Assembly (NCBI GenBank): GCA_017134395.1
Contig: CP070993.1
Coordinates: 608,945-672,944 of the forward strand
Direction: 5' to 3'
DNA length: 64,000 bases
Source of the DNA: Candidatus Kaiserbacteria bacterium
GTDB taxonomy: Bacteria > Patescibacteriota > Minisyncoccia > Phycocordibacterales > UBA2100
The stretch's first letter is position 1; each line of letters begins with the position of its first letter. Shown here in pieces: positions 10,724 to 55,464 of this stretch. The notes under the pieces are model-generated. The model was not told the DNA's origin and ran no database searches. It worked only from the letters and a program-made list of their open reading frames with translations. The position numbers were made by a program, and so were the translations under genes.

Positions 10724-12286
10724 ATGTCACGACGTCTTATCATCCCCGCATTATTAATAGCAGCAGCAATAGTAGCTCCTGGTATTTCAAATGCGGTCAC
10801 TAATGATGACTTAAAAAACCAGATTGCAAATCTACTTAAACAGGTGCAAGTACTGCAACAGCAACTGCAAGTAGTTGAGAATTCAGGTTCTACGAGTTCT
10901 GTTGTACCTATTACATATACCAGCAGCACACCAACAGCAACTGGTTCATGTGCGAGCATCGCGTACAATTTAAACAAAGGCGATGAGAATGATGAGGTAC
11001 GAAAGTTACAACTATTTTTAGCACAAGACCCGAGCGTCTATCCAGACGCAATTGTGAGTGGATACTTTGGCTCGCTTACACAAAGGGCAGTACAAGCATG
11101 GCAAGCAAAGCACGGCATTGTGTCTGGTGGAACTCCTGCAACAACGGGGTATGGGTCGGTTGGGCCAAAAACACGAAGTGCAATGGCGAGTCTCTGTAAC
11201 GGAGGTTCTGTCACATCAAGTTCTGCGATCGCACGGAGTCTTGTGGTAACACCAGAAGTTGGACCAGTACCACTACAGGTGACAGCAACATTTTCATTAA
11301 ACGGCTCATCCTGCTCATCATACTATTTAGACTGGGGTGATGGCACACAACCGCTTTTGTTTGATGCAGGCAATACTGCGTGCACAAACGATATTGCGCA
11401 TAAACGAGCGACACATACCTATGTCCGTTCTGGTGTTCACCAGATCACATTACGTGCCGGACAAGGGCCGCTTTCAAGAGCGGGAGTTGCAGGACAAACA
11501 TTTGTATCAGTTGGTAGTACCATTACAACCGGCTTGGCACTGAGTCCATCTACAGGTTCTGTGCCGTTTACGACCAGCATTACATTTCCAGTGAAGGGCT
11601 CTACCTGTACTTCATACGAAGCAGATTGGGGAGATGGTACAGTGGATAGATTCGAACCATCAAGTTTTACTAATTGTGTACAAGATACGGGCACACAATC
11701 ACTAACACATACATACAACAACGCAGGAACATACAAAGTTGAGTTTAAAACTGGTAACGCGCGCCTTTCTCAACTTCCCGTAACAGGAAGGTGGGACGTG
11801 CTCGTCGATAATACTATTAGCGCAGATGCTTCTTTGAAGATAGAACCAACATCAGGAATAGCACCACTTGCTGTAAAGGTGACCTTAGCCGGATACAGTG
11901 AGGCATGTACTTCATATTTGATTGATTGGGGAGATGGAACACAGCCAGAATTCTATGACGGAGATTTTGAAAACTGTGAAGGGTTTAGATTCCAAAAACT
12001 GTTTACTCACGCATATACAACACCAGGTACATACACTATACGAACTAAAGTGGGTACGCGCACCGCATTGGCCAACATACCGTTCAATAGTCAATCAATT
12101 ATCGTGGGTTCACTTGGTACTGTGGAAGCAACATGTGTATATCCTAATACTCCAGTATGTGGAGAGATAGTGTTTTCGTGCCCGATAGGGTATACGTGCG
12201 ACCAGTCATACCAAACGTTTTCAAACCGCTGTGAAATGGAGTCCGCAAATGCGACTTTCGTAAAACAGGGGCGCTGTGACTTCTAA
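10724..12286 (+). CDS. secreted multidomain protein, paralog 3: signal peptide, coiled coil, PG-binding-like domain, three PKD-like repeats, C-terminal Kazal-like module
   Basis: ORF track starts at 10691 overlapping paralog 2; ATG 10724 gives signal peptide MSRRLIIPALLIAAAIVAPGISNA; QIANLLKQVQVLQQQL; CSSYYLDWGDGT, CTSYEADWGDGT, CTSYLIDWGDGT; C-term CVYPNTPVCG...TFSNRC...GRC. Confidence 0.7.
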   Translation: MSRRLIIPALLIAAAIVAPGISNAVTNDDLKNQIANLLKQVQVLQQQLQVVENSGSTSSVVPITYTSSTPTATGSCASIAYNLNKGDENDEVRKLQLFLAQDPSVYPDAIVSGYFGSLTQRAVQAWQAKHGIVSGGTPATTGYGSVGPKTRSAMASLCNGGSVTSSSAIARSLVVTPEVGPVPLQVTATFSLNGSSCSSYYLDWGDGTQPLLFDAGNTACTNDIAHKRATHTYVRSGVHQITLRAGQGPLSRAGVAGQTFVSVGSTITTGLALSPSTGSVPFTTSITFPVKGSTCTSYEADWGDGTVDRFEPSSFTNCVQDTGTQSLTHTYNNAGTYKVEFKTGNARLSQLPVTGRWDVLVDNTISADASLKIEPTSGIAPLAVKVTLAGYSEACTSYLIDWGDGTQPEFYDGDFENCEGFRFQKLFTHAYTTPGTYTIRTKVGTRTALANIPFNSQSIIVGSLGTVEATCVYPNTPVCGEIVFSCPIGYTCDQSYQTFSNRCEMESANATFVKQGRCDF

Positions 12287-47237: not shown

Positions 47238-47308
47238 TGTCGGATCGTCTAATGGTAGGACGACTGGTTCTGGTCCAGTTAATCTAGGTTCGAGTCCTAG
47301 TCCGACAG
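47238..47308 (+). tRNA. tRNA-Gln (anticodon CUG)
   Basis: UGUCGGA-UC-GUC-UAAUGGUAG-GAC-G-ACUGG-UUCUGGU-CCAGU-UAAU-CUAGG-UUCGAGU-CCUAG-UCCGACA-G; U1:A72 as in bacterial tRNA-Gln; its 3' end overlaps the recombinase gene stop. Confidence 0.85.
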
Positions 47309-48985
47309 CAGACTTGAATTAGTAGCATCTAATTCACCAGAATACCCTTGTTTTAACTGGGGTATTTTAGGTTCGAGCGTAGCATTTAGCGACACAGACA
47401 AATCATACGTACTTCGTATACCAGAAAGCGGAGAAGGTACGGAAACATTGAGTTTTTTGTCTTTTAGTGTGAGGTTCGAGCCGAGAATGGAAAGTACCTC
47501 GCGTTTGGTGTTATTGTCACCATTCTTAAACTTTTCACGTGCGTTTTGGGCAAAGTTGAGATAGTTATTAGCAACGCCAACCCAGTCAATTGCACGTTCA
47601 TGTAGTCCTTCCACATTCTTACGCACAACTCGCAACTCTTTCTCCACTTGTGCTCGTGTCTTGAGCAACTGTTCAGAAGTGATTTCATCACTTGCTCGCA
47701 TCATCACAAGGTTGTCCAACTTGTTTAGCAACTCAGTCTCTCTTTTTCTATTTTGTTGAGTTATGTGGTCCTGCTCGTGTATTTCATTACGGTGTATATA
47801 TTTCAGAGCTTCGACTGCCCATGCATAAAATTCAGTAGGTATTGATACTTTCTTTATGGACTCAGATATTTGATTTTCCAACACAGATTCCTCGATGTAT
47901 CTTTGCGAACATACTCCCTTCTTCTTGGTACAGCGGTAATAGGTCTTGTCGATGATGCTAGGTCTCTCCATTTCAGATACGTCTATGTGGCAGGCAGGGC
48001 ATTCGGTTTGAGTACGAATTGAGAACTTCTTTTTGCATTGAGTACATATAGCTTGCAACTTACGTTCTGCGGTCACTGCACAACCACACTCACCACAGGA
48101 TAAAGAAGATCGGAAGGGGAAGTCATACTTATTAACCTTTGTCGGGCGCCCATGCTTGCCCAGAAGCGTCTGTACGCGGTTGAACTCATCTTCTGTAATC
48201 AGTGCTTCGTGCTTGCCAAAGAAACGTTCCTTGTAACCTTCTTCACCATTCCAATCAAATACGCCAAAGTAAAATGGGTGAGTGAAAGTATTGTAAAAGG
48301 TATTTACTGAATAGGGCTTTCCACTTCTATTCCTTAGCCCCAACGAATCAGCCTCTCTTTTGATATCAGGTATAGAGTATGAACCTGTAAGCATCTTCTT
48401 CCAGAGAGATTTTACTATTTTGAAACGTTCTGCGTCCTTCTCTATCTCTTGGTCGCCCATGTTGTAGTCTTTTTTGTGTTTGTACCCCATGGGCAGGACT
48501 GACGCAGGATACCAACCACGCTTCGCCTTGTTCCGTTGACTTCGCTTCACGTCCACACTCAAGTCGTTCACGTATTGGGTAGACATACCAAGCTCAACCG
48601 CCATCATCAATACGTTGTCCCAAGGATTGTATTCCCGTGAGTAAGTTTGTAGGTGTTGTATAGTTCCTTCTTGGAGCATCCAACTGATTTGTCCGCCATC
48701 TACAGGGTTACGTGCAAGTCGGTTAATCTTCCAACACAAGATACCGTTTGCCTCTCCTTTTTGGATACGTCCAAGCATTTTGTTGAACTCAGGTCGTCCG
48801 CTAGGTGTTTTTGCGGATTTGGATTCGGTGATGGTTTCTATTACATTCAAATCCAAGTTCTCAGCTAGACGCATCATTTCAGAAGTTTGGTCTTCAATTG
48901 AAGCCATTTGCTTGTCCTCACTGTCGGTAGACTTTCGAACGTACAGTATGTATTTGAGATCTTTCTGTTTTGGGGAGGTCATCAT
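47297..48985 (-). CDS. large serine recombinase (resolvase/invertase catalytic domain, recombinase domain, zinc ribbon)
   Basis: N-terminal YILYVRKSTDSEDKQMASIEDQ with nucleophile Ser; central recombinase domain; CGECGC...C...CPAC zinc-ribbon; 562 aa. Confidence 0.85.
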   Translation of the reverse strand: MMTSPKQKDLKYILYVRKSTDSEDKQMASIEDQTSEMMRLAENLDLNVIETITESKSAKTPSGRPEFNKMLGRIQKGEANGILCWKINRLARNPVDGGQISWMLQEGTIQHLQTYSREYNPWDNVLMMAVELGMSTQYVNDLSVDVKRSQRNKAKRGWYPASVLPMGYKHKKDYNMGDQEIEKDAERFKIVKSLWKKMLTGSYSIPDIKREADSLGLRNRSGKPYSVNTFYNTFTHPFYFGVFDWNGEEGYKERFFGKHEALITEDEFNRVQTLLGKHGRPTKVNKYDFPFRSSLSCGECGCAVTAERKLQAICTQCKKKFSIRTQTECPACHIDVSEMERPSIIDKTYYRCTKKKGVCSQRYIEESVLENQISESIKKVSIPTEFYAWAVEALKYIHRNEIHEQDHITQQNRKRETELLNKLDNLVMMRASDEITSEQLLKTRAQVEKELRVVRKNVEGLHERAIDWVGVANNYLNFAQNAREKFKNGDNNTKREVLSILGSNLTLKDKKLNVSVPSPLSGIRSTYDLSVSLNATLEPKIPQLKQGYSGELDATNSSLLSD

Positions 48986-50028: not shown

Positions 50029-50703
50029 TTACTCTAAGAATAATCCCCAACCGTGTTCGCGCTGATTTCTTATTAATCGTTCACCCGTGGTACGTCGTAG
50101 TTGTGTTTGCAGCTCAGAAATGTCCTGTCCAGTCCTTCTGCGCCAATTATCCGTGCCCTCTAGCCCAAGAGCATCTGCTAACTCTTCAGCTACTACGTAG
50201 TTTCCCACACTTTCAAATAGACGAAGAAAGAGGCTCTTGTACTTCCTTGTGAAATTTATTTGCCTTTGCTTGTAAGTAATTCGATTGTCTGCATATAAAG
50301 AAAAGTCTCCCGCTGATCTGACAGCAACTGTACTGTACGCTTCATCTGTTTGAGCAAGCTCAGGATTTGCTTCTACTTCTTCCTGCACGCGTTGGTACTC
50401 CTGTCGTAATGTGTCCGCATTAGTGACAGTATAGCTTAACCAGTATTCATCACTAAGAACTGCAGAACCGTCATCTTCATATAGAACTTGTCGCCCGTTA
50501 ATCTCCATCGGTATTTGATCCAACATCTCGGTGTGTATGGCGCCCATTTCTTCTAGTAGTTGAATGGCGCGATTTAAATGGTGCCAGTCTAGTCCGAGTT
50601 GGGAATTAACCATTGAATATAAACCATGCGCAGGGTTGGGATTTCGGACATGTTCATCTAAGATGCTACGTAAAACCAAATGATAATTTCCAGTTTGACT
50701 CAT
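50029..50703 (-). CDS. putative DNA-binding protein with C-terminal OmpR/PhoB-type winged helix
   Basis: C-terminal ...YVVAEELADALGLEGTDNWRRRTGQDISELQTQLRRTTGERLIRNQREHGWGLF resembles the trans_reg_C domain. Confidence 0.45.
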   Translation of the reverse strand: MSQTGNYHLVLRSILDEHVRNPNPAHGLYSMVNSQLGLDWHHLNRAIQLLEEMGAIHTEMLDQIPMEINGRQVLYEDDGSAVLSDEYWLSYTVTNADTLRQEYQRVQEEVEANPELAQTDEAYSTVAVRSAGDFSLYADNRITYKQRQINFTRKYKSLFLRLFESVGNYVVAEELADALGLEGTDNWRRRTGQDISELQTQLRRTTGERLIRNQREHGWGLFLE

Positions 50704-51140
50704 TCATCTAGGATACATCCATAAGCACTTTTTTGAAATATGTAAATTTTTTTACACGGGTATATTCTCTTACGTATATACTTTGTACCCCATACGTACC
50801 CCCATTAGTGTCTAAAAGAGTCGGTAAGTGGCTTTGTTGAAGGATACGTACCGTTGATATTGCTCAGTATCTACGCTGTTTCTTCACGGTACCGCCGTGT
50901 ACCGTGCGGTATGGAATAAAGAGTTGTATAATGGCTTTACAACTGAATATTTGCCTTTAATTAGGCGCGCCTAAACTTTGTGGATTATCCATAAAGCATG
51001 GTGCAAAAAACACAACGAAGATAGAAAACCCATCATCAGGGCGCTTCGTTGTGTTATGCGGGGAAACTCGCATAGGAGTCTTCGGACTCTACTGGTGGTG
51101 GGCTTTGTGTTGCTCACCTCTTATTAGCTAACTATCAATT

Positions 51141-51578
51141 ATGAAGTTAACTTTGCAACACGTAATTATCGGGATAGTAAGTCTGCTCGTGATCGGGGCA
51201 CTCTACATACGTTTTAATCAAAGCGATGTGGGTAAAAATCCTGAGGTGTCATTTGAGAAAAAGCAAACTTGCGCTGATGTTCTCGTTGATGAACAAGAAT
51301 CAGATGCAAGGTACAACGATAAAATTCGCAATAGCGGATATCACACAGAGGTGCATTACAGCCCTGCTTTACAAACTTGTTTGATTGCAAAAGTACATAT
51401 ATATCTTTCAGTCGAGGAGGACGATATTGATGCAGCGGGCTTGGCGACATATACGATTACTGATGCTTTCACAGGCAAAACGTTTTTCACGCACAAGGCT
51501 TTGTTGGGTGATGAATCAGCTACAGCAACAGAAATGTTTAACAACAAAATGGAAAAGCTTATTGAAGAAGGAGTATGA
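51141..51578 (+). CDS. hypothetical membrane-anchored protein (145 aa), element cargo
   Basis: N-terminal TM/signal anchor. Confidence 0.5.
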   Translation: MKLTLQHVIIGIVSLLVIGALYIRFNQSDVGKNPEVSFEKKQTCADVLVDEQESDARYNDKIRNSGYHTEVHYSPALQTCLIAKVHIYLSVEEDDIDAAGLATYTITDAFTGKTFFTHKALLGDESATATEMFNNKMEKLIEEGV

Positions 51579-51772
51579 ACAAGTATCTAACAATAAGTCT
51601 AATCAGTGCGCTTGTATTTATTTTCTTCTCATTAACGTCATTGTATCCATATTTGTACGACTTTGTTTTCGGCGATTATATCGGAGGATTCGACTTGCTG
51701 TTTTGGGGTGCAATAGTGAGCGGTTTGATTTCAGTCACTTCCGGAGTAATAGCATTTATCAAACGAGCCTAA
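51575..51772 (+). CDS. small 2-TM membrane protein (65 aa), element cargo
   Basis: ATGA overlap with upstream gene; two hydrophobic helices. Confidence 0.5.
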   Translation: MNKYLTISLISALVFIFFSLTSLYPYLYDFVFGDYIGGFDLLFWGAIVSGLISVTSGVIAFIKRA

Positions 51773-51830
51773 ATTACGTCTTTTTGTACTGACAATACTG
51801 TAGGGTGAGTGTAGAATCATCTGTAAGCTT

Positions 51831-53414
51831 ATGATTCAAGAAATTAAAAAACACTTTTTTCGCCTTACATATGCTTTGAAGTATAGTAGGGTTTTGCAGA
51901 TAGCTAGAAAAATATTCCCATCAAAGCGTACTAAGATGGAAGAGTATACTGCAGAGTATGCAAGATACTTTGATAATCTGTTCGCAAAGGCCGCTAATGC
52001 GGGAGGCTTTCAGTATCTATGCACCATTCTCAGGGTAGAAGGTCTGACTTCAGGGCATTGGGACGCTTTTGTAGAAGCCGAGGAGGCGTCTAGAGATATA
52101 AGCAATATTTTGAGAAAGACCAAGGGTAACAGAAAAGAGAAACGTGCAATCAGATTAGGATTATTTTTGTACTGTCACCTAACAGAAATGTCAGCACCTT
52201 ATGAAATATTGGCAAATTTGTTGAGAGGTTGTCAAAATGCACCATATAGCGTGTACCCGTTCCATCATCTGGTGCGAATTGTTGGTGGAAAGAATACTCA
52301 ACCTTGGGAGAAAAAACGTCTACCACCTTCGCCAGCAGCAAAAATAGCGCATCTCGAAGAGTTGGGTAAAGAGTGTGGAGAAGAGGAATTAAACCAGATC
52401 ATAAATGAGTTTTTCCGTAACAATGTTAGAAACGCTTTCTACCATTCAGACTACGCACTTTCGGATGATGAGTTTCGAATAGTCGAGGGTTCACAAATGT
52501 TGGGTAAGGAAGTTATAAAAATTGAAGAACTTTCAGAGTATCTAACCAAATGTTTCGCCTTCTATTCCGCCTTTTTTATCGTTTACAATAATATAAGACG
52601 CGGTCTCGCGTATGGGAAAAAATTTCACAGATGGCCAAATTATGAGGTGTTGGAATTTTTAACGGACGAAAAAGAATTAAATGGTTTTAAAGTGCATTTC
52701 CCGAACGGTTCTCATGCGATGTTCCAAAGGAAGAAATACGGCGGTACAGATGGTTACAATTTTATGTTCGAAAAAGAAGGGATTGGCTTACAGGTTGGGG
52801 ATTTAAAGAAGTATCACGAGGCAACAGATTGGTTTGTCGGAGATGAACCTTTTGATGAGTTTGGAACGCGTTACAATCCTTACGGCAAGTGGCAGCCAAT
52901 AGTTTTTTCTAGAGATAGCGATCGCATCCAAAAGATGGCAAGAGATGCCACCGAAGATAGAGATGCCGAGGGTTGCCTTTTTTACATATACGCCACAGGG
53001 CATAAGGCAATTGAATTTGTTTTAAAAACAAATAAACCAATTACTTGGTTTTCTTCTATGCGCGGACCTTTTTGGTCAGTAAAAAAGAACTTTATTGTTA
53101 AGAAATGCGATCCAGTTGGCGGTGCTTATATATACGATGGCACAGTTTTTCTAGACGGCAAATCAGAAAAAGATGTTCTTGCTGGGTTAGCACGAATCAG
53201 TGAATTTGTTACAGCTCTGGAGTCAAAAGGGATTGAGGTTAAATCAAGATTGAAATATCAGATGTATTCCGATTTGTCTGATAGGGCAAAAGACGGAGGT
53301 GATGGAACATTCTCTGTTACCATAAGTATGGATGATCCACGCAGTACTCTTGTCGCAAACAACCTGGGCATGTTCCCTAAGAGCGATTGGAAAATAAGGC
53401 CAGAATGGATATGA
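51831..53414 (+). CDS. large hypothetical protein (527 aa) with HEPN-like RxxxxH motif; candidate Abi/defence-type cargo
   Basis: FFRNNVRNAFYHSDYAL (R-x4-H) in a helical N-terminal region; C-terminal about 270 aa unassigned. Confidence 0.5.
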   Translation: MIQEIKKHFFRLTYALKYSRVLQIARKIFPSKRTKMEEYTAEYARYFDNLFAKAANAGGFQYLCTILRVEGLTSGHWDAFVEAEEASRDISNILRKTKGNRKEKRAIRLGLFLYCHLTEMSAPYEILANLLRGCQNAPYSVYPFHHLVRIVGGKNTQPWEKKRLPPSPAAKIAHLEELGKECGEEELNQIINEFFRNNVRNAFYHSDYALSDDEFRIVEGSQMLGKEVIKIEELSEYLTKCFAFYSAFFIVYNNIRRGLAYGKKFHRWPNYEVLEFLTDEKELNGFKVHFPNGSHAMFQRKKYGGTDGYNFMFEKEGIGLQVGDLKKYHEATDWFVGDEPFDEFGTRYNPYGKWQPIVFSRDSDRIQKMARDATEDRDAEGCLFYIYATGHKAIEFVLKTNKPITWFSSMRGPFWSVKKNFIVKKCDPVGGAYIYDGTVFLDGKSEKDVLAGLARISEFVTALESKGIEVKSRLKYQMYSDLSDRAKDGGDGTFSVTISMDDPRSTLVANNLGMFPKSDWKIRPEWI

Positions 53415-53430
53415 GGTACTGTTTTGATAT

Positions 53431-53610
53431 ATGCTTTCGATAGAAAAATGCAGAGAACTGATAGAAGATGATGAGAAGTATTCTGATGAGCAAATTATTG
53501 AAATTAGAGACGCATTAGATCAGCTCGCAAGTATTTTTGTTGACAAATATTTTAGCGAAAAGTTTCCTGAAGAAAATGTGGCTCTTGGATCAGGTGGCGA
53601 GCGAGCGTAA
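53431..53610 (+). CDS. possible small acidic protein (59 aa)
   Basis: ATG..TAA ORF just under the ORF-track cut-off; helical/acidic composition; weak SD. Confidence 0.3.
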   Translation: MLSIEKCRELIEDDEKYSDEQIIEIRDALDQLASIFVDKYFSEKFPEENVALGSGGERA

Positions 53611-53648
53611 TTCTTGCAGGAATATAAAATCGGGAGTAATGTGATTTT

Positions 53649-54053
53649 ATGACAATTGCATCAAAAATCGTTGTCGGCCTGCTGTCAGTTGGAGCTATTA
53701 CGGCAGTTGCTTCGGTTGGCTCAGACAGTGCAACAATCCAGCCAGTTGAACACGTAAGAGTTGAAACTAGAGCGGTAGACATACCTGATCCAGTACACAA
53801 GGTTAAAAAGGAGGTGATACAGGATGCGGAACCTAAAGAGGTGGTTGAAACTAAACCGACCTCTATTCCTGCATATACACCTCCTGTGTCTAATTGCCAT
53901 CCGAGCTATTCAGGTTGCCTTAAGGCAAACGCGAGCGACTACGACTGTGCAGGAGGGTCGGGCAACGGTCCGTACTACACAGGTACAGTTCAGGTATTAG
54001 GTCCAGATGTATTCGGTTTGGATAGAGACAAAGATGGTTGGGGTTGCGAATAA
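53649..54053 (+). CDS. secreted protein with C-terminal Excalibur-type calcium-binding motif
   Basis: signal peptide; ...GLDRDKDGWGCE (DxDxDGxxCE). Confidence 0.6.
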   Translation: MTIASKIVVGLLSVGAITAVASVGSDSATIQPVEHVRVETRAVDIPDPVHKVKKEVIQDAEPKEVVETKPTSIPAYTPPVSNCHPSYSGCLKANASDYDCAGGSGNGPYYTGTVQVLGPDVFGLDRDKDGWGCE

Positions 54054-54079
54054 TAGATTTACGGGAGTATACTGCCATC

Positions 54080-54229
54080 ATGAACACGGATACTGAGTAT
54101 TCTGACGAAGTTAAGGAAATAGCGGAAGACTACGGCGTTGACCTCGAAGAAGCAGAAGAGATAGAGGATCTATCTAACGAACTTGGAATTGACTGGGATG
54201 ACGCTCATATGGTGTGGGAAGAAAGTTAA
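54080..54229 (+). CDS. small acidic hypothetical protein (49 aa from ATG 54080)
   Basis: GGGAG SD upstream of the internal ATG; ORF track opens earlier at 54038. Confidence 0.35.
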   Translation: MNTDTEYSDEVKEIAEDYGVDLEEAEEIEDLSNELGIDWDDAHMVWEES

Positions 54230-54231
54230 GT

Positions 54232-54969
54232 ATGAAAAAAACAACAATCTATATCTTAATTGGTACTGTGGTATTGGCTGGAGGGCTTTTCTATTTCTAC
54301 TCAGGAGGCAGTAATGAATTTGAAATTTCTCCCACGGTATCTAATGAAAACTCGTCACCATCAGCACGTTTACAGGTAACAGAAGAAGGGCGGTACGCAG
54401 ACGACTACTTCTCTCACTTGGCGGTAGTTCATGAAAAACTTAGTAATTTTGGTGAGCTGGAGATAAAGAATGAAGACGAGACAATGGAGGCGTTTTCGAC
54501 ACTTCTATATGATCTTGGAGAGATAATTAGCGCTGTAGATAACGCAGCCATTGAATTGGGAGGATATAGGGATTCTACGAGTGAGAACGTGGCGCTTCAT
54601 TCAGATGCTGTAGTTGTAGGGTACAAATCTCTAGGACTTTTGTATGAAGAATACAGAGTTGCACATGAGGAGTTGCTACGTTCAACAACAGAACAGGGTG
54701 TTGCCACTTACACAATCTCCACGAGTCGCATTCTGTCAGGAATAAACAATACACTTAAGACTTTCCCGCAGCTGAGCATGTTTCTAGTCCCAGCACTCTT
54801 GAAAGAGGAGAACGGCGAAGAACTAAATGCCCAATTAAGTAACGCCTTAGTTCAAAGGTTAGAGGCACTCTTCGGAGACGAAATAATAGAAGGCATGGCG
54901 GCAGGACAGCATGCTTTTGTTGCCTCTGGTGCGATAGTAAGACAACTGTTGCTTGGTGAAGAAATATAA
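54232..54969 (+). CDS. hypothetical membrane-anchored/secreted protein
   Basis: N-terminal MKKTTIYILIGTVVLAGGLFYF signal anchor; ORF track opens at 54214. Confidence 0.5.
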   Translation: MKKTTIYILIGTVVLAGGLFYFYSGGSNEFEISPTVSNENSSPSARLQVTEEGRYADDYFSHLAVVHEKLSNFGELEIKNEDETMEAFSTLLYDLGEIISAVDNAAIELGGYRDSTSENVALHSDAVVVGYKSLGLLYEEYRVAHEELLRSTTEQGVATYTISTSRILSGINNTLKTFPQLSMFLVPALLKEENGEELNAQLSNALVQRLEALFGDEIIEGMAAGQHAFVASGAIVRQLLLGEEI

Positions 54970-54980
54970 AAGATAGCAAA

Positions 54981-55412
54981 ATGAAGCACCACATGAAAAT
55001 ATCAACGGCAGTTTCACTTGTTCTTGCAGCTTTTGTTGGAGGGCTTTTGCTAGACTCGTCCATCTTTGGTCTAGGCGAAGCGGGATTCTCGAAGAAAGTG
55101 TCTTGTTCAAGTTTTAAGGAACAGGCAGAAAGTCGTATAAAGGACTACTACGCACCATCAGAAGTAGTAAGCTATACACCTGATGAGATTTTCTTCAGTA
55201 CAAGTAAAGAAACCTGTATAGCAGCATGGAGTGGTGACTGGTTAAACGAGAACGGTATGTTTAAGCAGGTTGCCATATTTGATGCGGTTAGTAATCGGGA
55301 TATATACTCAGATATGGTGTATCGTCCCTTTGTTAAGGAAAGTGAAGACATTGATAATTTCTATCGCCGAACTGTGAATAGGTACGATGAGCTGCTAGTA
55401 GAGTTAAGATAA
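54981..55412 (+). CDS. hypothetical secreted protein (143 aa)
   Basis: N-terminal signal-like hydrophobic segment. Confidence 0.5.
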   Translation: MKHHMKISTAVSLVLAAFVGGLLLDSSIFGLGEAGFSKKVSCSSFKEQAESRIKDYYAPSEVVSYTPDEIFFSTSKETCIAAWSGDWLNENGMFKQVAIFDAVSNRDIYSDMVYRPFVKESEDIDNFYRRTVNRYDELLVELR

Positions 55413-55464
55413 AATAGTAGTTCGAGCAATTTGCAGAAAAGTATTACAGGTGTAGATTTAGAGT

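What the first reader, a model, noticed from the sequence alone, without database searches (positions are those of the whole stretch)
51141..53610. Cargo module of the element: two small membrane proteins followed by a 527-aa protein with a HEPN-like RxxxxH motif
Genes 51141-51578 (membrane-anchored), 51575-51772 (65 aa, 2 TM, ATGA-overlapped) and 51831-53414 form a tight unit. The 527-aa protein carries FFRNNVRNAFYHSDY (R-x4-H) in a helical N-terminal half, the spacing and residue pattern of HEPN RNase active sites in AbiD/F, AbiU2 and RnlA-type proteins. Its C-terminal roughly 270 aa match nothing I can assign. A possible 59-aa acidic ORF follows (53431-53610). The arrangement of small membrane partner(s) plus a large HEPN effector on a mobile element fits a phage-defence or abortive-infection module, but the proteins look novel.
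Basis: inference. Interest (0 to 1): 0.6.

Follow-up and report, generated by a model that had tools for sequence, protein, structure and literature searches.

The report
New HEPN-like defence gene on mobile element
The 527-aa gene belongs to a widespread but unnamed protein family with a HEPN-type (RNA-cutting toxin) fold and an invariant R-x4-H site; it sits alone among restriction and anti-phage genes in other genomes, so it is probably a single-gene phage-defence nuclease, and the two small membrane ORFs beside it are not its partners.

The parts
51831..53414 (+). Gene for the 527-aa HEPN-like protein (NCBI JXR01_03585, Candidatus Kaiserbacteria, annotated hypothetical)
   Evidence: ORF. 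Exact match to P0001. 89 homologues by word-index search and 567 cluster representatives by exhaustive HMMER. AlphaFold model with pLDDT 92 and pTM 0.87.
51933..52616 (+). N-terminal helical domain, residues 35-262. The inferred HEPN core is about residues 79-261: helix 1 = 79-100, helix 2 = 103-134, variable insert = 135-167, helix 3 = 168-204, helix 4 = 231-261.
52428..52454 (+). Putative catalytic motif R200-N-A-F-Y-H205-S-D-Y208
   Evidence: R200, N201, H205 and Y208 are 100% conserved, and A202, F203, S206 and D207 96-98%, in 88 sequences. The motif is kept as LRNGYAHADY in a 27%-identical phage homologue. H205 is the first residue after helix 197-204.
52617..52865 (+). Beta-rich middle domain, residues 263-345. 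It is the most widely conserved part of the family (E272, E275, G285, H289, R300, N310, G323, W334).
   Evidence: Present in the short, long and ~650-aa forms. R300 is invariant across the ~650-aa variants aligned with the query.
52866..53411 (+). C-terminal alpha/beta domain, residues 346-527, probably ferredoxin-like. Present only in the long CPR forms and the ~650-aa variants.
51789..51817 (+). Best sigma-70-like promoter match of the region (CTGACA-17-TAGAAT, 10 of 12), 14 nt before the ATG of the 527-aa gene
   Evidence: Consensus match only. Promoter-like sites are not enriched overall (9 found, 13.3 expected).
51141..51578 (+). 145-aa N-terminally anchored protein (JXR01_03580). It has no detectable relatives and is not a conserved partner.
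   Evidence: One TM segment. Only a self-hit among 5.8 billion proteins. No relative in homologue loci. Weak paralogy to the 143-aa ORF at 54981 (E 0.006, two Cys aligned).
51575..51772 (+). 65-aa ORF with two TM segments, not called in the public annotation. Its status as a gene is uncertain.
53431..53610 (+). 59-aa acidic protein (JXR01_03590), 16 nt after the 527-aa gene. It is a singleton cluster and is not found next to homologues.
50968..51090 (+). LOOT RNA (Rfam RF03000), full length, at the head of the + strand operon
   Evidence: 82.7 bits against a gathering score of 46.4, E 7e-15. The same RNA-then-ORF layout is seen in L109, L161 and L208.
51097..51118 (+). Terminator-like hairpin directly after the LOOT RNA
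   Evidence: pattern match only.
53649..55842 (+). Rest of the co-directional run: ORFs of 134 aa (TM anchor, Excalibur-like C-terminus), 63 aa (acidic), 251 aa (TM anchor), 143 aa (TM anchor) and 125 aa
55883..55909 (+). Strongest intrinsic-terminator-like site, at the end of the + strand operon
   Evidence: 11-bp stem with 7 GC pairs, then a T-run.
47291..47309 (+). attL: the 19-nt repeat, which is the 3' end of tRNA-Gln (47238-47309)
56040..56058 (+). attR: second exact copy of the 19-nt repeat. The element is about 8.75 kb.
47297..48985 (-). Large serine recombinase (562 aa) of the element
   Evidence: Resolvase, Recombinase and Zn_ribbon_recom domains. NCBI calls it a 'recombinase family protein'.
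50029..50703 (-). 224-aa protein transcribed divergently from LOOT. It has a weak C-terminal match to an OmpR/CreB-type DNA-binding region and is possibly the element's regulator.
   Evidence: NCBIfam E 0.001, far below the cutoff. Tentative.

Best explanation
The 527-aa protein is a member of a previously unnamed family of the HEPN superfamily. I think it most likely acts as a single-gene, abortive-infection-type RNase.

Proposed mechanism (inferred):
- R200 and H205, helped by N201 and probably by the invariant upstream E119, form a metal-independent RNase site at the end of helix 3 of a four-helix HEPN bundle.
- The conserved beta domain and the CPR-specific ferredoxin-like C-domain keep the nuclease latent.
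- They release it, probably through a change in oligomeric state, when infection is sensed. RNA is then cleaved and phage growth is stopped.

In some relatives the gene sits between hsdS and hsdR, the same position as PrrC, so the R-M complex may be the guard there.

In this window the gene is cargo, possibly with its own promoter, on an 8.75-kb serine-recombinase element integrated in tRNA-Gln. The neighbouring small membrane ORFs belong to the element's LOOT-RNA-led operon and are not partners of the nuclease.

Shown: the fold similarity, the motif conservation, the domain architecture, the genomic associations and the element boundaries.
Inferred: the RNase activity, the defence role and the latency/activation mechanism.
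For: Motif:
- R200, N201, H205 and Y208 are 100% conserved in 88 homologues.
- The motif is retained at 27% identity in a phage homologue.
- The polar N after the R and the position at the end of helix 3, before the loop to helix 4, match the HEPN census criteria.

Fold:
- 7ae2, 5yep, 1jog, 1wwp, 1ylm, Csm6, Roquin and GlnE are nearly the only hits aligning more than 110 residues.

Domain displacement:
- In the ~650-aa relatives the N-terminal motif is lost or deleted.
- In its place, an inserted domain carries an invariant R-x4-H plus a conserved E.
- That insert hits MauJ, HEPN_RiboL-PSP and HEPN_Apea below threshold in 21, 4 and 1 of the 46 ~650-aa variants.
- HHalign puts RNAFYH on IRxxLAHG and E119 on the insert's E.

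Context:
- Homologues lie next to AIPR/AbiU, Shedu SduA_C, Eco57I, DpnII, MunI, AbiEii, SLFN_AlbA_2 and a TIR-like gene.
- Two CPR phyla have the arrangement HsdM-HsdS-gene-HsdR.
- About 11 of 34 loci are R-M-linked, and tRNAs abut the gene in 4 of 11.

Standalone gene: no neighbour family recurs across the family.

Element.
Against: - No HEPN Pfam, NCBIfam or PADLOC model hits any of the 89 members.
- HHalign support is weak: P = 0.022, probability 2%.
- The residue-level superposition of R200 and H205 on known catalytic residues could not be inspected, because neither coordinates nor alignments were available.
- The upstream acidic residue is not in the usual Ex3[KR] form.
- R68, D78, N129, R300 and N310 stay conserved where the N-terminal motif is lost, so the scaffold has a second, unknown functional site.
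- R-M and defence linkage is frequent but not universal, and I did not compute it against a background rate.
- There is no experimental evidence for any member.
Confidence: 0.55

Rival explanations
1. One reading: a three-gene system in which one or two small membrane proteins act together with the HEPN effector, for example as a sensor, anchor or pore, analogous to HEPN-plus-TM candidate systems.
For: The ORFs are adjacent and co-directional, and two of them overlap by ATGA. The closest homologue's contig (L048) also has unrelated small TM ORFs a few genes upstream.
Against: - The 145-aa protein matches nothing but itself.
- The 65-aa ORF is uncalled.
- There are no relatives in 50 homologue loci.
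- No small TM gene recurs upstream.
- A promoter-like site separates these ORFs from the 527-aa gene.
- Similar arrays of small TM ORFs follow LOOT RNAs on contigs whose arrays contain no HEPN gene.
- The 145-aa protein has an N-terminal anchor and a conserved Cys pair, which suggests an extracytoplasmic domain.
Confidence: 0.06
2. An addiction (toxin-antitoxin) module that stabilises the integrative element. The HEPN-like protein is the toxin and the downstream 59-aa acidic protein is its antitoxin.
For: There is a 16-nt gap to a small, very acidic ORF that is annotated as a gene. HEPN toxins commonly form TA pairs, and the top structural hits are HepT toxins. The gene is on a mobile element.
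Against: The 59-aa protein is a singleton and is absent beside all homologues examined. No MNT-type nucleotidyltransferase or other recurring small neighbour is present. Most homologues are single genes next to R-M or Abi genes.
Confidence: 0.12
3. A non-nuclease role. The HEPN-like domain binds a nucleotide or nucleic acid, as in the KNTase_C and GlnE-type substrate-binding HEPN domains. The conserved beta-domain site (E272, E275, H289, R300, N310, together with R68, D78 and N129) carries the real activity, for example as an accessory or regulatory factor of R-M systems.
Against: An intact R-[N]-x3-H that is 100% conserved is what the HEPN census treats as diagnostic of RNase-active members, and non-catalytic HEPN domains usually lose it. 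When the motif is lost, a canonical HEPN domain with R-x4-H is gained, which argues that the RNase site is what selection keeps.
Confidence: 0.15
4. Not a HEPN domain at all: a different helical bundle with a family-specific RN...H..Y motif of unrelated function.
Confidence: 0.1

Closest known systems
HepT / DUF86 minimal HEPN toxins of MNT-HEPN toxin-antitoxin systems (PDB 8xdj, 7ae2, 5yep)
   Different: - They are 130-140 aa, against a 228-aa helical domain plus two further domains here.
- No MNT antitoxin gene is nearby.
- The Tyr is at H+3 (H-S-D-Y), not H+2 as in Rx4HxY (the HepT motif is recalled from memory).
- There is no DUF86 or HEPN Pfam hit.
PrrC / RloC-type HEPN anticodon nucleases linked to Type I R-M
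   Same: Relatives in Doudnabacteria and Uhrbacteria sit as HsdM-HsdS-gene-HsdR, the position prrC occupies in the EcoprrI locus (recalled). The census reports at least 16 HEPN clades linked to R-M systems.
   Different: There is no N-terminal ABC/P-loop ATPase domain. The window copy has no R-M genes nearby. There is no sequence similarity.
   Same: They share the general logic: a standalone HEPN protein in a defence island or on a mobile element, with R-x4-H and a polar residue after the R.
   Different: No Pfam or PADLOC model of these families matches any of the 89 members. The architecture of beta domain plus ferredoxin-like domain is different.
RiboL-PSP-HEPN / Apea-HEPN / MauJ (PF18735, PF18739, PF17419)
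   Same: The domain inserted in the ~650-aa relatives hits these models (best E 3.5e-4, 8.5e-4 and 6.7e-6) and carries IRxxLAHG.
   Different: All hits are below the gathering cutoffs and lie on the insert, which the window protein lacks. The window protein itself hits none of them.
LOOT RNA (Rfam RF03000)
   Same: The RNA at 50968-51090 is a full-length member, well above the gathering score.
   Different: Rfam types it as an sRNA. Here and in three other loci it sits 9-70 nt in front of a same-strand ORF array on serine-recombinase or viral DNA. I could not find that context described.

Membership tests
HEPN superfamily | Conserved Rx4-6H motif | tested here: met
   R200 and H205 are 100% conserved in 88 sequences. 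Criterion taken from PMC3710099.
HEPN superfamily | Polar residue (N, D or H) immediately after the conserved R | tested here: met
   N201 is 100% conserved.
HEPN superfamily | Four-helix bundle fold resembling solved HEPN domains | tested here: met
HEPN superfamily | [quoted passage not shown] | tested here: met
   DSSP shows helix 197-204, with H205 as the first non-helical residue, then hairpins and the long helix 231-261. The P0074 model is the same: helix 164-171, then H172.
HEPN superfamily | Second conserved acidic residue in helix 2, near the motif (typically Ex3[KR]) | tested here: inconclusive
   E119 and E82 are 100% conserved. HHalign pairs E119 with the insert's conserved E. The residue is not in Ex3[KR] form, and its spatial proximity to the motif could not be checked.
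HEPN superfamily | Detectable by sequence profile as a member of a described HEPN family | tested here: not met
   No Pfam, NCBIfam or PADLOC HEPN hit for any of the 89 members. A PDB profile search was negative.
HEPN superfamily | Metal-independent RNase activity that depends on the R and H | not testable with these tools
   Needs biochemistry.
HepT-MntA (HEPN-MNT) toxin-antitoxin | Adjacent MNT nucleotidyltransferase antitoxin gene | tested here: not met
   None is present in the window or in the homologue loci.
PrrC-like R-M-guarded anticodon nuclease | Gene embedded in a Type I R-M operon | tested here: not met
   Not met for the window copy: no R-M genes lie on the element. It is met for the relatives in L004/L017 and L018.
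PrrC-like R-M-guarded anticodon nuclease | N-terminal ABC/P-loop NTPase domain | tested here: not met
   No such domain by Pfam or in the model.
   No hit at E up to 1 and none among the 89 members.
MauJ (PF17419) | Match at or above the gathering score (28 bits) | tested here: not met
   The query has no hit. The ~650-aa relatives reach at most 27.4 bits, and only on their inserted domain.
LOOT RNA (RF03000) | Covariance-model score above the gathering threshold over the full model | tested here: met
   82.7 bits against 46.4, model positions 1-121 of 121.
Integrative element with a large serine recombinase | Recombinase with Resolvase, Recombinase and Zn-ribbon domains, plus flanking direct repeats at a tRNA | tested here: met

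The most novel reading that the evidence does not exclude
The family's beta domain, together with the ferredoxin-like domain where it is present, forms a new sensor or regulatory platform that needs a HEPN RNase but does not care where it is attached. It works either with the divergent N-terminal HEPN-like domain carrying RNxxxHxDY, or, when that site decays, with a canonical HEPN domain inserted near the C-terminus. That would make this an uncharacterised, phylum-spanning single-protein immune sensor-effector with a CPR-specific elaboration. Separately, the LOOT RNA, typed as an sRNA in Rfam, would be the leader of the cargo operon of a class of small serine-recombinase elements and viruses of CPR bacteria.
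Probability: 0.35. Interest if true: 0.6.

Novelty: new variant of a known kind. Interest (0 to 1): 0.45.

Why it matters
HEPN RNases are a recurring effector of prokaryotic immunity (Cas13, Csm6, PrrC, AbiD/F, HepT). This family has 567 clusters at 50% identity across many phyla and has no model in Pfam, NCBIfam, PADLOC or PHROGs. Defence-system annotators therefore miss it completely.

It also adds to the sparse catalogue of immunity genes in CPR/Patescibacteria, whose small genomes are thought to be poor in defence systems.

The complementary pattern, in which the N-terminal HEPN site is present or a canonical HEPN domain is inserted, is a clean natural experiment. It suggests which residues to mutate.

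The short form in the cultured Paenibacillus vulneris JCM 18268 gives an experimentally tractable entry point.

The LOOT RNA context gives a first genomic setting for an orphan RNA motif.

Tried and rejected
- Direct family searches of the 527-aa protein and eight neighbours against Pfam, PADLOC, PHROGs and NCBIfam gave nothing usable.
- PDB sequence and profile searches gave nothing.
- Foldseek against the PDB with the full model had a best E of 0.07.
- The AFDB fold libraries were unavailable.
- HHalign of the N-domain against the inserted HEPN domain gave the right register but was not significant.
- PADLOC 'mad1' hits in four members, and 'mad2'/'mad5' hits in neighbours, are the HTH domain and R-M subunits, not a link to MADS.
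- A single DzbB hit (1 of 46 variants, E 3e-5) was not pursued after the literature gave nothing.
- A conserved ~278-aa gene downstream of the ~650-aa variants is synteny within one close clade.
- Family members on IMG/VR viral contigs: none were found with the conserved peptide patterns. Only two distant phage hits turned up in GenBank phages.
- LOOT as a general companion of the family is rejected: it occurs in only the window and L109 among 131 loci.
- The first LOOT DNA pattern gave mostly chance matches.
- The two 679-aa ORFs in the window are unrelated.
- The N-terminal extensions of P0104 and P0117 could not be identified by PDB sequence search.
- Literature searches for MauJ plus HEPN, MauJ plus methylamine dehydrogenase, and LOOT gave nothing useful.
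Full report
**Observation**

- 51141-51578: 145 aa, one N-terminal TM segment.
- 51575-51772: 65 aa, two TM segments, ATGA overlap with the previous ORF.
- 51831-53414: 527 aa.
- 53431-53610: 59 aa, 16 acidic residues (TM and charge counts).

The protein contains FFRNNVRNAFYHSDY. Its only R-x4-H is R200-H205. On its own that motif is weak evidence: 54% of shuffles of this protein contain an R-x4-H, and 9% contain R[NDH]x3H.

The window comes from a 687,746-bp contig of a Candidatus Kaiserbacteria bacterium. The 527-aa protein is JXR01_03585 and the 145-aa protein is JXR01_03580, both annotated as hypothetical. The tags are consecutive, and the 65-aa sequence is absent from the public protein collection. 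So the 65-aa ORF was never called as a gene.

**The element**

- tRNA-Gln lies at 47238-47309.
- Its last 19 nt (47291-47309) are repeated exactly at 56040-56058.
- A 562-aa large serine recombinase (Resolvase, Recombinase and Zn-ribbon domains) lies at 47297-48985 on the minus strand.
- Housekeeping genes flank the region: CTP synthase and VIT1 on the left, SpoU methylase and MsrAB on the right.

This is therefore an ~8.75-kb integrated element, and the finding lies inside it.

The + strand genes from 51141 to 55842 form one run of nine ORFs with small gaps, ended by the strongest terminator-like hairpin at 55883-55909. The best promoter-like site in the region (51789-51817, 10 of 12 matches) lies in the 58-nt gap in front of the 527-aa gene.

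**The protein family**

No Pfam, PADLOC, PHROG or NCBIfam model matches the 527-aa protein. None matches any of 89 homologues apart from HTH domains on four short forms. PDB sequence and profile searches are empty.

Even so, the family is large. The word-index search found 89 homologues. An exhaustive HMMER scan of 1.84 billion representatives found 567 with E ≤ 0.001, and 322 with E ≤ 1e-10.

There are three architectures:
- **Short form (~310 aa).** It covers query residues ~35-345, sometimes behind an HTH. It occurs in many phyla, including Myxococcaceae, Nitrospirae, Planctomycetia, Acidobacteriota, Gemmatimonadaceae, WWE3, Woesebacteria and the cultured Paenibacillus vulneris JCM 18268.
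- **Long form (~480-530 aa).** It adds residues 346-527. It was found only in Patescibacteria lineages: Kaiser-, Nomura-, Zambryski-, Doudna-, Uhr- and Saccharibacteria and Paceibacterota. The window gene is of this type.
- **~650-aa form.** It has an extra ~150-220-aa domain inserted between the equivalents of Y476 and P503.

The conserved core runs to residue ~345, and only ~180 aa are the add-on.

**Is it HEPN?**

Motif conservation:
- In the 89-sequence alignment, R200, N201, H205 and Y208 are 100% conserved among the 88 sequences covering the region.
- A202, F203, S206 and D207 are 96-98% conserved.
- A 27%-identical homologue in Microcystis phage Mwe-Yong1 still has LRNGYAHADY.

Structure:
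- The AlphaFold model of the window protein is confident (pLDDT 92.0, pTM 0.87).
- Further HEPN hits are HepT 7ae2 (7.0), HepT 5yep (6.7), HI0074 (6.6), YutE (6.5), TTHA0636 (6.5), Csm6 (6.5), Roquin and LAS1L.
- As a replicate I modelled a short form from Gemmatimonadaceae (P0074; pLDDT 93.7, pTM 0.91).

Fit to the census criteria: the HEPN census (PMC3710099) defines the superfamily by these features:
- an Rx4-6H motif;
- a polar N, D or H after the R;
- a second acidic residue in helix 2;
- the motif at the end of helix 3, entering the loop to helix 4.

Here N follows R. Helix 197-204 ends just before H205, and hairpins then lead to the long helix 231-261. E119, at the end of helix 103-119, is invariant.

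Weaknesses:
- Foldseek against the PDB is negative.
- I could not inspect residue-level superpositions.

**Domain displacement**

In the ~650-aa relatives the N-terminal motif region is degenerate or deleted, while R68, D78 and N129 persist. Their inserted domain has an invariant R, an H conserved at ≥90% four residues later (IRxxLAHG), and an upstream E conserved at ≥90%.

That insert hits Pfam MauJ in 21 of the 46 ~650-aa variants, HEPN_RiboL-PSP in 4 and HEPN_Apea in 1. All hits are just below the gathering thresholds and lie on overlapping stretches.

HHalign of the query family's N-domain against the insert aligns IRNAFYHSDY with IRxxLAHG, and E119 with the insert's E. The statistics are poor (P 0.022, probability 2%).

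The pattern of one HEPN site or the other is the strongest indirect argument that the N-terminal R-x4-H is a functional HEPN site. It also shows that the beta and C-terminal scaffold is the constant part of the family.

**Context**

Pfam-annotated neighbourhoods of homologues:

| Locus or loci | Neighbouring genes |
|---|---|
| L001 | N6_N4 MTase, AIPR, PDDEXK_3 |
| L003 | Shedu SduA_C, Eco57I-type enzyme, Peptidase_S24, SLFN_AlbA_2 |
| L004 | HEPN_RiboL-PSP, RadC, AbiEii, then HsdM-HsdS-gene-HsdR, and a serine recombinase |
| L005/L006 | RNase H, MTase, DpnII, AIPR, HD |
| L007 | MBL/Apyc1-like, HTH, MunI, MT-A70 |
| L009/L010 | bpMoxR, VWA, DEAD-MZB helicase |
| L048/L049 | an overlapping TIR-like gene |

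- A batch scan of 107 neighbours from 34 non-redundant loci puts Type I R-M subunits on top.
- The HsdM-HsdS-gene-HsdR cassette occurs in Doudnabacteria and Uhrbacteria with the same R-M lineage: HsdM 75% and HsdR 73% identical, HsdS 33%.
- Counting other MTases and REases, about 11 of 34 loci are R-M-linked.
- At least 7 of 27 long loci of the ~650-aa variants are R-M-linked too.
- tRNA genes abut the gene in 4 of 11 CPR loci.
- No neighbour family recurs across the family.

So this is a standalone gene of variable defence regions.

**The membrane "partners"**

- The 145-aa protein finds only itself among 5.8 billion sequences.
- All the small proteins of the element that are present in the collection are singleton clusters.
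- None of the 12 small element proteins has a relative in 50 homologue loci.
- The 145-aa protein is weakly paralogous to the 143-aa ORF at 54981, with two Cys aligned.

A better explanation for these ORFs came from an Rfam scan. A full-length LOOT RNA (RF03000; 82.7 bits against a gathering score of 46.4) lies at 50968-51090. That is 50 nt upstream of the 145-aa ORF, and the RNA is divergent from the 224-aa gene and the recombinase.

Three more LOOT RNAs were confirmed, in L109, L161 and L208 (77-88 bits):
- In each, a same-strand ORF starts 9-70 nt after the RNA.
- In L109 and L208 the following ORFs are small N-terminally anchored membrane proteins.
- In L161, a viral contig, a serine recombinase 28% identical to the window's is transcribed divergently from the RNA.

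LOOT is not a general companion of the protein family. It occurs only in the window and in L109 among 131 loci covering 1.09 Mb.

The small membrane ORFs therefore look like part of the element's LOOT-led operon. The HEPN-like gene looks like cargo dropped into it.

**Mechanism (inferred)**

I propose a latent, single-protein HEPN RNase.
- R200 and H205, with N201 and probably E119, cleave RNA without metal.
- Activation probably works by changing oligomerisation.
- In R-M-embedded relatives the R-M complex may act as the guard, as for PrrC.

**Novelty and score**

HEPN effectors in defence islands and R-M operons are a well-known theme. What is new is the family itself:
- It is large and has no model in current family or defence databases.
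- It has an unusual three-domain architecture with a CPR-restricted long form.
- The position of the HEPN module has been swapped within the family.

I rate it a new variant of a known kind, with interest 0.45. The three-gene module is not.

Noticed in passing
window 50968-51090 (+); also L109:2113-2231, L161:5001-5120, L208:681-802: Full-length LOOT RNA (Rfam RF03000, 77-88 bits). In all four loci a same-strand ORF starts 9-70 nt downstream. In the window, L109 and L208 it is followed by small membrane-anchored ORFs. In the window and L161 it is divergent from a large serine recombinase. This suggests LOOT is the leader or first gene of a cargo operon on small integrative or viral elements. 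The 48- and 49-aa ORFs overlapping it in the window are spurious.
   Followed up: partly
proteins P0099-P0229 (alignments A3, A5); loci L052-L131: The ~650-aa relatives have lost the N-terminal R-x4-H and carry an inserted MauJ/RiboL-PSP-like HEPN domain with an invariant R-x4-H. One of the 46 variants weakly hits Dazbog DzbB (E 3e-5).
   Followed up: partly
L051:2749-3699 (Microcystis phage Mwe-Yong1, QXN67999.1) and MT839340.1: Distant phage-encoded homologues of the N-domain (27-28% identity). The Microcystis phage copy keeps LRNGYAHADY and lies next to a DNA adenine methylase gene.
   Followed up: partly
protein P0117 (555 aa), residues 1-255: A short-form core fused to an N-terminal extension with YVAYFDMLGF...VIFSDTIMFF, which resembles the two Asp motifs of class III cyclase or GGDEF-like domains. 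A PDB sequence search did not identify it.
   Followed up: partly
L048:4326-5759: In the closest homologue's contig, a 477-aa gene with a TIR-like N-terminus (FYSWQSD; faint CAP12-PCTIR_TIR hit) overlaps the end of the HEPN-like gene by 14 nt.
   Followed up: no
window 51141-51578 and 54981-55412: Two weakly paralogous proteins (E 0.006) with an N-terminal anchor and an aligned Cys pair, on the same element. They are probably exported.
   Followed up: partly
window 53649-54053: A 134-aa membrane-anchored protein ending in DRDKDGWGCE, a weak match to the Excalibur calcium-binding motif (E 0.003, below the cutoff).
   Followed up: no
window 56059-57500: Directly after attR lies a low-GC stretch (0.337 for 56-57 kb) holding a 283-aa ORF with a faint GIY-YIG match and a 135-aa ORF, before the housekeeping genes resume. 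It may be the remnant of a second insertion at the same site.
   Followed up: no
window 5161-5235: tRNA-Ile with anticodon UAU, which is uncommon in bacteria.
   Followed up: no
window 1159-1548 (-): tmRNA with predicted tag peptide ANKTARGILSPFQMKDFGFAYA, which is longer than usual and ends in FAYA.
   Followed up: no
L013:5220-5486: A group I intron (Rfam, 81.5 bits) about 500 nt upstream of the Zambryskibacteria homologue.
   Followed up: no
L005:7535-7621, L007:5762-5910, L015:4754-4824, L018:1827-1898 and 12099-12247: tRNA genes directly abut the homologue or its R-M cassette in 4 of 11 CPR loci, as expected for integration hot spots.
   Followed up: no
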